Assembly (NCBI GenBank): GCA_951406725.2
Contig: OX597822.1
Span: 18,538,001 to 18,602,000 of the forward strand
Length of the DNA stretch: 64,000 bases
Direction of reading: 5' to 3'
Origin: Octopus vulgaris
Lineage: Eukaryota
Shown piece after piece: positions 48,001-51,000 of the stretch; the stretch's first letter is position 1, and every line of letters begins with the position of its first letter. The position numbers were made by a program.

Positions 48001-51000
48001 TCTTTCTTCTGAATCTAACATTTTAATCTCACATCATTTTATAAAATTGTTATTGGACAATTGTAGTTATTCTGTCAATTACAATTCTGTACTGTACTTA
48101 CTTATGGCTCGTTAACTCTCCATTTTATCTCATTAAATCATATCAAATTGAATAAAATGAGAATCTAATGATTTTTGTCGCAATATTTCTCTTTTAATTT
48201 TGCAAATTTAAAAAAAAAAAATTTCATGTTAAATCATATCTTTAAATTAATTTCATTGAGAGATAATTACTTATAACAACCAGAAATTGAGGAATTCATC
48301 AGTTCTCACTTGATGTTCCAACATTTTCATGTTTGCTTTAAATTTTATATTTAGTTGGAGAATGGCTGTAACAATATTAAGAGAACATAGGAATGAAAAA
48401 CTAATATTATATCTAAATATGACTGTGTGTGTGTGTGTTCACACAAAAACACATATACATATATTTATAATATATATATACACACACACACACACATATA
48501 TATATATATATATATATATATATATATATATATATATATATATATATATATATATATATATATATATATATATATATATATATATATATATATATATATA
48601 TATATATATATATATATATAAATATAAGAGAGTGGTCACTATATTGATCACTCTAGCACCAGTTAATCCAAAAGGTTTCAACCACGAAAAATACATGTTT
48701 CCCATGAAAGCCAGTACGACTGTTAGCTCACACGGACAGGGCAAATAAAAAATAACAAAAATACAGATTATTTTGGGACAATTGTTTCGCTATTAATGAA
48801 TTAAATGTAATATTACTTACAATAATCCATTTGTAGCTCTTCAGCCAAGACTATCTGGATGAAATCCACTCAATCACACGCCAGATTTTACCATAACGAT
48901 AAATACGCGTGCGGTTCAATTGATTACATCGGACGTTATAATTCAAATGCCCCAACCAACAGCGCGCCAAACTCTCACGGAAAACAAATACAGCATTTAG
49001 AAATAAATGCAGCATAATTATAATTAATTAATAAGGGTGAGAGAATTAGATACTAATTTAATAGTATATTTATTCCACACCAAGTGGCCTAGTGCTACGA
49101 GAAACCTGGATTATTATAATATTTTATAACATATTATAATATTTTCACAAAATAAATATAAGAGAGTGGTCACTATATTGATCACTCTAGCACCAGTTAA
49201 TCCAAAAGGTTTCAACCACGAAAAATACATGTTTCCCATGAAAGCCAGTACGACTGTTAGCTCACACGGACAGGGCAAATAAAAAATAACAAAAATACAG
49301 ATTATTTTGGGACAATTGTTTCGCTATTAATGAATTAAATGTAATATTACTTACAATAATCCATTTGTAGCTCTTCAGCCAAGACTATCTGGATGAAATC
49401 CACTCAATCACACGCCAGATTTTACCATAACGATAAATACGCGTGCGGTTCAATTGATTACATCGGACGTTATAATTCAAATGCCCCAACCAACAGCGCG
49501 CCAAACTCTCACGGAAAACAAATACAGCATTTAGAAATAAATGCAGCATAATTATAATTAATTAATAAGGGTGAGAGAATTAGATACTAATTTAATAGCG
49601 GATTTCATCCAGATAGTCTTGGCTGAAGAGCTACAAATGGATTATTGTAAGTAATATTACATTTAATTCATTAATAGCGAAACAATTGTCCCAAAATAAT
49701 CTGTATTTTTGTTATTTTTTATTTGCCCTGTCCGTGTGAGCTAACAGTCGTACTGGCTTTCATGGGAAACATGTATTTTTCGTGGTTGAAACCTTTTGGA
49801 TTAACTGGTGCTAGAGTGATCAATATAGTGACCACTCTCTTATATTTATTTTGTGAAAATATTATAATATGTTATAAAATATTATAATAATCCAGGTTTC
49901 TCGTAGCACTAGGCCACTTGGTGTGGAATAAATATACTATTAAATTAGTATCTAATTCTCTCACCCTTATTAATTAATTATATATATATATATATATATA
50001 TAAATATAACAAAACTTACTGGGAGGAGATGAAACGAAACGAATTGAACCGACGCGAGGGTGCTCAGTCATACAATAGTGTAATAAATAAAACATACATA
50101 CATACATATATGTACGTACCTACATCTACATGTATATATACATGCATATATAAATATATATACGTGAGTACAGGACACCACAAATAGACGTAGAACTCAA
50201 TGAGAAACGAAAACGTAAAAACAAACGTGGAAACGGACCTAAACAAAAAAAACAGAGTACAAGACAAACTACACAAGGAAAAATCCCCTTCATCAGCTGT
50301 CCCTAGTTCAACTCCAGCGTGTTTCGAAGGTGAGGACAGAACACGACTAGTGGAACTAGTCCTTCCTGCGAAGGAATTAAATAAAATTACTTCGCAGAGG
50401 AGTAAAAACAAGGAAAGTTAAACATGTGACAAAACCAGGACGTAAAAACGATACAAATAAAATTACAAAATAAAATACAGAATAAAAATACAAAAAATAA
50501 AAATACAGAATAAAATTACAAGTACGAAAAATACAGTACAAGAATAAAACAAACAAAAAAAACAGACAATGAGGGCCTTAATGCTGGCCTACATGAGGAA
50601 AGATTCTAAGAGCGCTAGATATATATATATATGTAGGTGCAGGCGTGGCTGTGTGGCAAGAAGCTTGCTTCCCAACCATACGGTTCTGGGTTCAGCCTCA
50701 CTGCCTGACATCTTGGACAAGTGTCATTTAAAGTGTTAAGCCAACTGAAGTCCTGTGAGTGGATTTGGTAGAAGAAACTGAAAAATGCCCATTGTATATA
50801 CATATATATATATATATATACGGGGTGTCCCAAAAGTCACTGATGGGTTTCAATTTTTAAAAACTTTCTTAACTTTAAAAAAAAATGCATGCAATTTTGG
50901 TACAATATAAAGGACATAATGGAAATTAATATGCACAAGTCAAATTTTGCAACACCACTACATAATATATATGCACCATAACACCATCAAGAGTTTCAGA

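What the first reader, a model, noticed from the sequence alone, without database searches (positions are those of the whole stretch)
48621..49980. Young hammerhead-bearing 534-bp concatemer with a junction-spanning inverted arm: candidate retrozyme or circular-RNA retroelement
Seen: about 1.8 near-identical head-to-tail monomers, each with an intact HHR on the same strand exactly 534 nt apart. A 380-bp inverted segment follows that itself crosses the monomer junction and carries a third HHR. There is no ORF, and the array sits in (TA)n. Known: metazoan non-LTR retrozymes are tandem non-coding repeats with type I HHRs that yield monomeric and circular RNAs, and PLEs give tandem and inverted pLTRs. 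Inference: cleavage of a minus-strand transcript releases a 534-nt monomer that can circularise, and the permuted endpoints reflect reverse transcription of a circular or multimeric template by a Penelope-like RT. I am not aware of this being described in this lineage.
Basis: partly seen in the sequence, partly recalled or inferred. Interest (0 to 1): 0.9.

Follow-up and report, generated by a model that had tools for sequence, protein, structure and literature searches.

The report
Hammerhead retrozyme insertion in TA microsatellite
A young, non-coding 534-bp tandem repeat carrying self-cleaving hammerhead ribozyme motifs sits in a TA microsatellite beside an inverted partial copy of itself; it is a well-formed example of the retrozyme elements already known from many animals.

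Summary
There are 1.83 head-to-tail copies of a 534-bp unit (447 of 447 overlapping bases identical). A 383-386-nt inverted arm follows and crosses the unit boundary. All of it lies between (AT)n and (TA)n.

Each of the three copies holds a complete type I hammerhead. A strict descriptor finds only these three in 64 kb and none in 1000 shuffles. Rfam Hammerhead_1 aligns end to end at 26.6 bits, below its gathering score of 34. It does so only when the 121-nt stretch is scanned alone. A 41-nt extension of helix II explains the low score.

The unit has no ORF above 69 aa and 33% GC, and it folds far better than shuffles (z about -7). A diverged, truncated relative at 12.7 kb has the same two outer ends next to (TA)n and its own inverted arm. 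This argues for a recurrent insertion mechanism and against misassembly.

The best reading is a metazoan non-LTR retrozyme, copied by target-primed reverse transcription from a template longer than one unit. No Penelope-like RT lies in the window. Self-cleavage, circles and the mobilising enzyme are inferred. It is a new member of a known kind, of modest interest.

The parts
48453..48620 (.). (AT)n microsatellite abutting the 3' end of the ribozyme-sense array. It is either the insertion target or a tail.
   Evidence: TRF reports 48453-48626, period 2, 87.5 copies. A perfect tract runs 48496-48620.
48621..49154 (-). Full 534-bp unit. The ribozyme-sense RNA is the minus strand, with sense coordinate s = 535 minus unit position.
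   Evidence: GC is 33% and the longest ORF is 69 aa. The circular fold is -149.1 kcal/mol, z -7.2, 68% paired. The linear fold has z -7.4.
49155..49598 (-). 5'-truncated upstream unit (sense s91-534), identical to the full unit.
   Evidence: 447 of 447 bases identical across 48618-49064 and 49152-49598.
48771..48850 (-). Type I hammerhead of the full unit. C17 is at 48777, and predicted cleavage falls between 48777 and 48776.
   Evidence: Descriptor hits. The sequence is identical to the arm copy that Rfam aligns.
49305..49384 (-). Type I hammerhead of the truncated unit. C17 is at 49311, 534 nt upstream of the other on the same strand.
49597..49599 (.). Inversion junction. It has 2 nt of microhomology (AG) followed by one base (C, 49599) that matches neither parent.
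49600..49982 (+). Inverted 5'-truncated copy (sense s288-534 then s1-136). It crosses the unit boundary, and its own 3' end faces outward to (TA)n.
   Evidence: 383 of 383 positions complementary to 49019-49401. See also (I1, I2).
49617..49696 (+). Third hammerhead, in the arm. Helix I is 49617-49622 with 49691-49696. The core CUGAAGA is 49623-49629. The 4-bp helix II is 49630-49633 with 49675-49678, with a 41-nt extension stem between the strands. GAAA is 49679-49682. Helix III is 2 bp with a palindromic AAUU loop (49682-49689). C17 is at 49690.
   Evidence: Rfam Hammerhead_1 at 26.6 bits, full model. Descriptor hits. Helix II and its extension appear in the MFE structure.
49979..50008 (.). 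(TA)n abutting the outer end of the inverted arm.
   Evidence: TRF reports 15 copies.
12679..13083 (+). Diverged, dead relative of the same family. (TA)n lies at 12679-12717. An antisense arm runs 12718 to about 12870 (sense about s130 back through s1 and s534 to about s495). A sense copy runs about 12878-13083 (about s335-534), truncated inside the hammerhead, and is followed by TA-rich sequence.
   Evidence: blastn E 7e-10 and 0.002. Alignments show 77% mean column identity. An internal inverted repeat of 43 nt is 91% complementary. There is no hammerhead hit, as expected for a truncated copy.

Best explanation
This is one recent insertion of a non-autonomous, non-coding hammerhead retroelement of the metazoan non-LTR retrozyme type.

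The minus strand is the RNA strand. [quoted passage not shown] This monomer is predicted to be highly self-paired, and a host RNA ligase could close it into a circle.

The DNA structure is the footprint of target-primed reverse transcription in a (TA)n target. Two cDNAs, both of ribozyme sense, have their 3' ends facing outward at two fixed UA-containing sites of the unit (s about 534 and s about 130-136). Their 5' ends are truncated at variable points and joined head to head by a 2-nt microhomology.

One cDNA is 1.83 units long, and the other crosses the unit boundary. The template was therefore longer than one unit, either a multimeric transcript or a circle copied round.

The enzyme is not in the window. 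A Penelope-like RT with GIY-YIG endonuclease is the most likely mobiliser, going by published architecture.

Shown here: the repeat anatomy, the hammerhead motif, the lack of coding capacity, the predicted RNA structure, and the shared ends at a second locus. Inferred: transcription, cleavage, circularisation, the priming mechanism and the identity of the RT.
For: - Anatomy and complete identity of the copies: 447 of 447 and 383 of 383 bases.
- Hammerhead: all core positions are present, with G10.1-C11.1, A15.1-U16.1, C17, and a 2-bp helix III carrying a palindromic tetraloop. This matches the metazoan type I architecture described in PMC4209133 (passages read).
- The strict descriptor gives 3 hits and 0 of 1000 shuffles.
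- Rfam Hammerhead_1 aligns over its full length at 26.6 bits. The same kind of small scan on two control stretches gave no hammerhead.
- Two complete hammerheads in consecutive units meets the operational criterion for an 'active retrozyme' in the preprint 10.64898/2026.07.22.740005 (section 5 read).
- The 534-bp unit lies within that preprint's range of 51-972 bp.
- GC is 33% and there is no ORF above 69 aa. The circular fold has z -7.2 and the MFE leaves helices I and II of the ribozyme formed. This agrees with the Results and Discussion of PMC7229834.
- The second locus at 12.7 kb has the same outer ends, different inner ends and its own arm.
- Arm-to-partner identity within a locus is 100% here and 91% at 12.7 kb. 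Identity between the loci is about 77%. Each arm was therefore made at its own insertion.
- Fixed outer ends with variable inner ends make sense only if the hammerhead strand is the template strand.
- A partial tandem with an inverted 5'-truncated copy at the 5' end, plus a microsatellite (including (TA)n) insertion bias, is described for Penelope-like elements in PMC8557442 (passages read).
- Perfect (TA)6 or longer tracts cover only 2.0% of the window (41 tracts). Even so, 3 of the 4 outer ends abut one, and the fourth abuts TA-rich sequence.
Against: - Rfam gives no hammerhead at gathering score. It also gives none in the larger E-value scans. The only hit is below threshold, at 26.6 against 34.
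- Both descriptors were written after I had seen the motif.
- The 41-nt extension moves loop 2 away from helix I, so the usual loop 1-loop 2 contact is uncertain and activity may be low.
- Only two loci were available, one of them degenerate. The 'fixed ends' therefore rest on n = 2.
- No Penelope-like RT or GIY-YIG domain was found in 118 of the 122 ORFs of at least 85 aa. The other 4 were dropped as low complexity. All RT ORFs in the window are LINE-type.
- The two outer ends differ from each other, whereas published Penelope-like insertions are drawn with the same terminus at both ends.
- A transcript that starts upstream of the arm would fold into a hairpin of about 390 bp (I1). This would bury the upstream hammerhead.
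- Complete identity of the copies is also what an assembly error would give.
Confidence: 0.72

Rival explanations
1. The array is the terminal part (pseudo-LTR region) of an autonomous Penelope-like element whose coding body was lost to 5' truncation. It would then not be an independent non-autonomous family.
For: Penelope-like insertions are mostly 5'-truncated. They form partial tandems with inverted copies and carry hammerheads in their pseudo-LTRs (PMC8557442 and PMC4209133). The 2026 preprint finds retrozymes to be sister to pseudo-LTRs.
Against: The unit repeats head to tail every 534 bp with no coding remnant; the longest frame is 69 aa. A truncated autonomous element would continue into the 3' end of its ORF rather than into another unit. 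No GIY-YIG or Penelope-like RT lies in the window.
Confidence: 0.12
2. The element is a retrozyme-like repeat, but a LINE with an apurinic-type endonuclease mobilised it. The inverted arm would come from classical twin priming.
For: The window is full of LINE RTs. PMC7229834 leaves LINEs open as mobilisers (Discussion). 5'-inverted retrocopies are a known L1 outcome; for this I saw only the search listing for PMC2912911, and the mechanism itself is recalled.
Against: The unit shares no sequence with any LINE 3' region in the window; blastn at word size 7 and E<=10 finds only the 12.7-kb relative. In twin priming on one linear RNA the two pieces do not duplicate each other, but here they overlap fully.
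Confidence: 0.1
3. The structure arose at the DNA level or in assembly. Candidate causes are an inverted duplication or template switch at a fragile (TA)n tract, unequal exchange in a hammerhead satellite, or a chimeric assembly.
For: All copies are 100% identical. A second near-perfect palindrome lies 4 kb away at 54105-54886. (TA)n tracts are dense.
Against: An independent, diverged locus has the same outer ends and its own 91% arm. Local DNA accidents or assembly errors would not reproduce this. The junction has 2-nt microhomology plus one odd base, as expected for joined cDNA ends.
Confidence: 0.07
4. The whole composite is a DNA transposon or foldback-type element. Its short imperfect terminal inverted repeats (ATAAG..GAGAG at both ends, inverted) would insert at TA, and the 12.7-kb copy would be an internal-deletion derivative.
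For: The two outer ends resemble each other in inverted orientation and abut TA repeats (read). The 12.7-kb copy keeps both ends and lacks the middle.
Against: Arms within a locus are far more alike (100% and 91%) than the loci are to each other (about 77%). The arms were therefore made anew at each insertion and not inherited from a composite ancestor. The tandem unit with ribozymes is unexplained by this model, and no transposase is associated with it.
Confidence: 0.04

Closest known systems
Metazoan non-LTR retrozymes (Cervera and de la Pena 2020, PMC7229834; Li et al. 2026 preprint 10.64898/2026.07.22.740005)
   Same: Head-to-tail non-coding AT-rich repeats. There is a type I hammerhead in every unit on one strand. 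The monomer RNA is highly self-paired and leaves the ribozyme free to fold. The unit length lies within the published 51-972 bp range, and there are few units per locus (75% of published families have at most 7).
   Different: The unit is longer than the 170-400 nt typical of invertebrates. Helix II carries a 41-nt extension, so Rfam scores it below threshold. An inverted arm accompanies the tandem. Expression and circles are untested here.
Penelope-like elements and their pseudo-LTR hammerheads (PMC4209133, PMC8557442)
   Same: A partial tandem plus an inverted 5'-truncated copy at the 5' end. Insertion into microsatellites, including (TA)n. Type I hammerhead with a short palindromic helix III and G10.1-C11.1.
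   Different: There is no RT or GIY-YIG ORF. The two outer termini differ from each other. The hammerhead is of the canonical form (helix III of 2 bp plus a tetraloop), not the minimal form usual in Penelope-like elements.
Hammerhead satellites of newts and salamanders and Schistosoma repeats (as summarised in PMC7229834 and PMC4209133)
   Same: Tandem units of a few hundred bp with type I hammerheads. Helix III is palindromic, which allows a two-ribozyme (dimeric) active form.
   Different: Those form long arrays in very high copy number. Here there are 1.83 units at a dispersed site with insertion-type ends.
L1 5'-inversion by twin priming (recalled; only the search listing was seen)
   Same: Two cDNAs primed from the two target strands, joined head to head with microhomology. 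The result is an inverted 5' piece.
   Different: Here the two pieces duplicate the same sequence and one exceeds unit length. This needs a multimeric or circular template, or two template molecules.
Plant LTR retrozymes (PMC4918200; only the abstract in the search listing was seen)
   Same: Non-autonomous, with hammerhead-processed circular RNA intermediates.
   Different: Those carry type III hammerheads in true LTRs, with PBS and PPT, and are mobilised by Gypsy elements. Here the hammerhead is type I and there are no LTRs.

Membership tests
Metazoan non-LTR retrozyme | Head-to-tail tandem repeat of a few hundred bp | tested here: met
   1.83 units of 534 bp, with 447 of 447 bases identical. 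The published consensus range is 51-972 bp.
Metazoan non-LTR retrozyme | At least two consecutive units, each with a complete type I hammerhead on the same strand | tested here: met
   C17 lies at 48777 and 49311 on the minus strand. The criterion is taken from the preprint's methods.
Metazoan non-LTR retrozyme | Non-coding and GC below 50% | tested here: met
   The longest frame is 69 aa in a trimer, and GC is 33%.
Metazoan non-LTR retrozyme | Monomer RNA highly self-paired, with the ribozyme free to fold | tested here: met
   The circular fold has z -7.2 and is 68% paired, with helices I and II present in the MFE. The linear fold has z -7.4.
Metazoan non-LTR retrozyme | No LTR, PBS or PPT | not tested
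   There are no terminal direct repeats other than the tandem itself. PBS and PPT were not searched for.
Metazoan non-LTR retrozyme | Expressed as linear and circular monomer RNA; self-cleaves | not testable with these tools
   This needs RNA data or in vitro transcription.
Metazoan non-LTR retrozyme | Co-occurs with autonomous Penelope-like elements in the genome | tested here: inconclusive
   There are none in this 64-kb window. The rest of the genome was not available.
Type I hammerhead ribozyme (Rfam RF00163) | Conserved core CUGANGA...GAAA...UH, with helix I open and helices II and III closed | tested here: met
   Read. Confirmed by the descriptor and by the Rfam alignment to model positions 1-45 of 45.
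Type I hammerhead ribozyme (Rfam RF00163) | Score at or above Rfam's gathering threshold | tested here: not met
   26.6 bits against 34. There was no hit in the scans. The shortfall comes from a 37-nt insertion in loop 2 of the model.
Type I hammerhead ribozyme (Rfam RF00163) | Loop 1-loop 2 tertiary contact | not testable with these tools
   Helix II is 4 bp, then an internal loop, then a long stem. Whether that internal loop can replace loop 2 is unknown.
Autonomous Penelope-like element | ORF with RT and GIY-YIG endonuclease | tested here: not met
   There is no ORF in the unit and no GIY-YIG domain in 118 scanned ORFs.
Autonomous Penelope-like element | Partial tandem with an inverted 5'-truncated copy; microsatellite target | tested here: met
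   compared with passages of PMC8557442.
Plant LTR retrozyme | Type III hammerheads within LTRs | tested here: not met
   Helix I is the open helix, which makes this type I.

The most novel reading that the evidence does not exclude
The two loci would be a structural footprint of how animal retrozymes integrate. A TA-microsatellite nick primes reverse transcription at two specific UA-containing sites of a circular or multimeric hammerhead RNA, and the two cDNAs are joined head to head. This would be direct genomic evidence for the copying of a template longer than one unit that has so far only been proposed. The ribozyme would be a canonical type I hammerhead that tolerates a 41-nt helix II extension which standard covariance models miss.
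Probability: 0.3. Interest if true: 0.5.

Novelty: new member of a known kind. Interest (0 to 1): 0.3.

Why it matters
The integration step of animal retrozymes is still a proposal. PMC7229834 suggests that circular RNA is copied into tandem cDNA, and the 2026 preprint states that the mechanism remains to be elucidated.

A zero-divergence insertion whose junctions are all readable, together with an older relative sharing its ends, gives concrete predictions. These are fixed 3' ends at UA sites, variable 5' truncations, head-to-head joins, and (TA)n targets. A genome-wide census could test them quickly.

There is also a practical point. Rfam at default settings missed a complete hammerhead because of a long helix II insertion, so Rfam-based annotation will undercount such elements. 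Beyond this, the locus is an ordinary repeat insertion with no sign of host function.

Tried and rejected
- Rfam at gathering score on the whole window and at E-value thresholds on 2.6 kb and 10.1 kb found no hammerhead, only microsatellite-driven miRNA look-alikes. Scanning the 121-nt stretch alone was needed.
- A fourth loose-descriptor hit at 45013-45061 (minus strand) was rejected as a hammerhead. It fails the strict descriptor and has no Rfam hammerhead hit. It also lies inside a long hairpin.
- I looked for a Penelope-like partner in the window. Pfam scans of 118 of the 122 ORFs of at least 85 aa (4 low-complexity ORFs dropped) found only LINE-type RTs, PHD, zf-RVT, Exo_endo_phos and a Mos1 HTH.
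- I tried to place the window taxonomically with the longest LINE ORF. The best hits were 60-74% identical and unnamed. Named hits at 52-59% came from a hydrozoan, a catfish and amphioxus. The window is therefore animal, with the lineage unresolved. I did not pursue the unnamed records.
- ARAGORN found no tRNA in the window.
- I considered that the LINE ORF at 52201-53946 (minus strand) and the array form one element. I rejected this because mariner-like fragments and 2.2 kb of unrelated sequence lie between them and the unit shares no sequence with it.
- A literature search found no paper holding both 'retrozyme' and 'twin priming' among the 15 listed of 295 papers that held at least two of the four search terms.
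These include the retrozyme lists and model figures of PMC7229834 and the tables of the 2026 preprint. They may already list this family or lineage.
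Full report
WHAT IS THERE

The sequence between 48453 and 50008 reads, on the plus strand, in this order:
- (AT)n at 48453-48626;
- a full 534-bp unit at 48621-49154;
- 444 nt of a second unit at 49155-49598;
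- a 3-nt junction at 49597-49599;
- an inverted segment at 49600-49982;
- (TA)n at 49979-50008.

An exact comparison shows that 48618-49064 equals 49152-49598 at 447 of 447 positions. It also shows that 49600-49982 is complementary to 49019-49401 at 383 of 383 positions. The two bases 49597-49598 fit both pieces, and 49599 fits neither. The inverted segment is the reverse complement of unit positions 1-247 followed by 399-534, so it crosses the unit boundary. TRF did not list the 534-bp period because its longest period is 500.

THE RIBOZYME

On the plus strand of the arm, and on the minus strand of both direct units, lies a complete type I hammerhead. Its parts, in arm coordinates, are:
- helix I, 49617-49622 pairing with 49691-49696 and extending further with internal mismatches;
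- the core CUGAAGA, 49623-49629;
- a 4-bp helix II that opens with G10.1-C11.1;
- GAAA, 49679-49682;
- a 2-bp helix III (A15.1-U16.1 and C-G) capped by the tetraloop AAUU;
- C17 at 49690.

The eight bases 49682-49689 form a perfect palindrome. Two ribozymes could therefore pair through helix III, as described for many metazoan type I hammerheads (PMC4209133, passages read). The unusual feature is the 41 nt between the strands of helix II, which fold into a long extension stem.

Rfam behaved as follows:
- It found no hammerhead at gathering score in the window.
- It found none among 13 matches at E<=1 over 2.6 kb.
- It found none among 49 matches at E<=10 over 10.1 kb.
- When 49595-49715 was scanned alone, Hammerhead_1 (RF00163) aligned over its whole length (model positions 1-45 of 45) at 26.6 bits, against a gathering score of 34. 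E was 5.6e-05 for that small search, and a 37-nt insertion fell in loop 2.
- The same kind of small scan on two control stretches gave no hammerhead.

My own descriptors gave these results:
- The loose descriptor gave four hits in the window against 0.155 expected; 26 of 200 shuffles had at least one.
- The strict descriptor gave only the three array motifs, and none in 1000 shuffles. It requires G10.1-C11.1, A15.1-U16.1 and helices I, II and III of at least 4, 4 and 2 bp.
- Both descriptors were written after I had seen the motif.

The three motifs are copies of one sequence, so this counts as one independent occurrence. Even so, it is very unlikely to be chance. Activity is not shown. The long helix II may weaken the usual loop-loop contact.

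THE UNIT AS AN RNA

The two minus-strand cleavage sites (C17 at 49311 and 48777) are 534 nt apart. A transcript covering both would release a 534-nt monomer.

- The unit has 33% GC, and no frame longer than 69 aa in a trimer.
- Folded as a circle, the ribozyme-sense monomer reaches -149.1 kcal/mol, against -107.7 +/- 5.8 for 60 shuffles (z -7.2). It is 68% paired, and helices I and II of the hammerhead are formed in the minimum-energy structure.
- The antisense circle reaches -114.4 kcal/mol (z -6.2).
- The linear fold gave z -7.4, with 0 of 100 shuffles as good.

These are the properties reported for animal retrozyme RNAs (PMC7229834, Results parts 1-2 and Discussion read).

A SECOND LOCUS

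The unit has one relative in the window, at about 12718-13083. It reads, in order:
- a perfect (TA)n tract at 12679-12717;
- an antisense piece from about s130 back through the unit boundary to about s495, where s is the position in ribozyme sense (blastn E 7e-10 for its best part);
- a sense piece from about s335 to s534 (blastn E 0.002), which starts inside helix II and so lacks the catalytic box;
- TA-rich sequence.

Alignments give 77% mean column identity. The two pieces overlap in a 43-nt inverted repeat that is 91% complementary.

The same two outer ends occur at both loci. One is the sense 3' end at s about 534, and the other is the arm end at s about 130-136. The inner ends differ: s91 and s288 here, about s335 and about s495 there. 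Within each locus the arm is much closer to its partner (100% and 91%) than the loci are to each other (about 77%). Each arm was therefore made at its own insertion.

Fixed outer 3' ends with variable inner 5' ends are the signature of target-primed reverse transcription. The pattern only reads that way if the hammerhead strand is the template. This second locus is also the main argument against a misassembly.

HOW IT WAS PROBABLY MADE (INFERENCE)

- Two cDNAs of ribozyme sense were primed from the two sides of a break in (TA)n.
- Each was primed at a short UA run of the RNA. The two outer ends fall on 2 of the 12 alternating-TA runs of at least 4 nt in the unit. Both are preceded by a similar CUCUC...UUAU motif (read).
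- The cDNAs were joined head to head through 2 nt of microhomology.
- One cDNA is 1.83 units long, and the arms of both loci cross the unit boundary. The template therefore exceeded one unit, and was either a multimeric transcript or a circle copied round. The data do not distinguish the two.
- The genomic ends do not coincide with the ribozyme cleavage site (between s378 and s379). Priming was thus not at the 3' end of a cleaved linear monomer.
- Perfect (TA)6 or longer tracts cover 2.0% of the window in 41 tracts. Three of the four outer ends abut one. This indicates a target preference or a tail.

COMPARISON WITH WHAT IS KNOWN

- Tandem type I hammerhead repeats that are non-coding, AT-rich, expressed as linear and circular monomers, and found in cnidarians, molluscs, rotifers, flatworms, annelids, crustaceans, insects and amphibians were defined as non-LTR retrozymes in PMC7229834.
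- A 2026 preprint (10.64898/2026.07.22.740005; abstract, methods section 5, part 1 of the Results, and Discussion read) gives consensus lengths of 51-972 bp. It reports at most seven units in 75% of families. Its working definition is two consecutive units with complete hammerheads. It also presents phylogenetic evidence that retrozymes derive from the pseudo-LTRs of Penelope-like elements.
- PMC8557442 (passages read) describes for Penelope-like elements frequent 5' truncation, partial tandems, an inverted 5'-truncated copy at the 5' end, and insertion bias for microsatellites. These include (TA)n in Naiads.
- The idea that circular RNA is the template for copies longer than one unit is in PMC4209133 and PMC7229834.

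This locus is a clean instance of it, not a new kind.

Three points are less usual: the 41-nt helix II extension, the two different outer termini, and the readable junctions of a zero-divergence insertion. I found no paper combining 'retrozyme' with 'twin priming' among the 15 listed of 295 papers that held at least two of the four search terms.

WHAT IS MISSING

- No Penelope-like RT or GIY-YIG domain is in the window. I scanned 118 of the 122 stop-to-stop ORFs of at least 85 aa; the other 4 were dropped as low complexity.
- The RTs present are LINE-type. One carries Exo_endo_phos and one carries zf-RVT. One family carries a PHD-like finger, and its database homologues carry Exo_endo_phos. 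Two further fragments are 78% and 32% identical to that family.
- The lineage of the window could not be fixed. The best homologues of the longest LINE ORF are unnamed and 60-74% identical. Named ones at 52-59% come from a hydrozoan, a catfish and amphioxus.
- No eukaryotic genome collection was available. Copy number, other ends and the autonomous partner therefore stay unchecked.
- Supplementary files of the papers, which list retrozyme families by species, were closed.

VERDICT

This is a real hammerhead-bearing retroelement insertion of the retrozyme type, young, and with an architecture like that of a Penelope-like element. It is a new member of a known kind. Confidence in this reading is 0.72. 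Interest is 0.3: a specialist would not be surprised, but the locus gives testable predictions for the integration mechanism.

Noticed in passing
window 45013-45061 (minus strand), within 45024-45140: A hammerhead-like match to my loose descriptor (CUGAAGA, GAAA, helix I of 6 bp) lies inside a 117-nt near-perfect hairpin. It fails the strict descriptor because 10.1-11.1 is G-U. It has no Rfam hammerhead hit when scanned alone. The hairpin scores 51.1 bits against MIR9486, whose gathering score is 100. It is probably a chance match in a palindromic repeat.
   Followed up: partly
window 54105-54886: A near-perfect palindrome of about 780 bp. One pair of arms is 231 nt at 99%, and an outer pair is 129 nt at 98%. 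Each arm contains an internal (TA)n. The 98-nt spacer looks tRNA-like by eye, but ARAGORN calls no tRNA. A 70% relative lies at 11130-11300. This is a second young inverted duplication of a repeat close to the finding. It could reflect the same insertion machinery, or an assembly tendency.
   Followed up: partly
window 52201-53946 (minus strand) and 30019-30915 (plus strand): A LINE family whose RT is followed by a PHD-like zinc finger. One copy has a 581-aa open frame, and a second fragment is 78% identical. More than 2000 database relatives have E<=1e-20, and many of them carry Exo_endo_phos.
   Followed up: partly
whole window: TA microsatellites are very dense. There are 41 perfect (TA)6 or longer tracts covering 2.0% of 64 kb, several of them at the edges of repeat fragments. 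Examples are 12679-12717 next to a LINE fragment, and 34275-34313 at the end of an ORF with a PHD match. This suggests that (TA)n is a common landing site or tail for retroelements in this genome.
   Followed up: partly
window 5903-6283; 50926-51629: Mariner-type transposase remnants. One is a Mos1 HTH_48 match. The others are two overlapping fragments on opposite strands that share a transposase-like peptide by eye but have no Pfam hit. They lie between the array and the LINE ORF.
   Followed up: no
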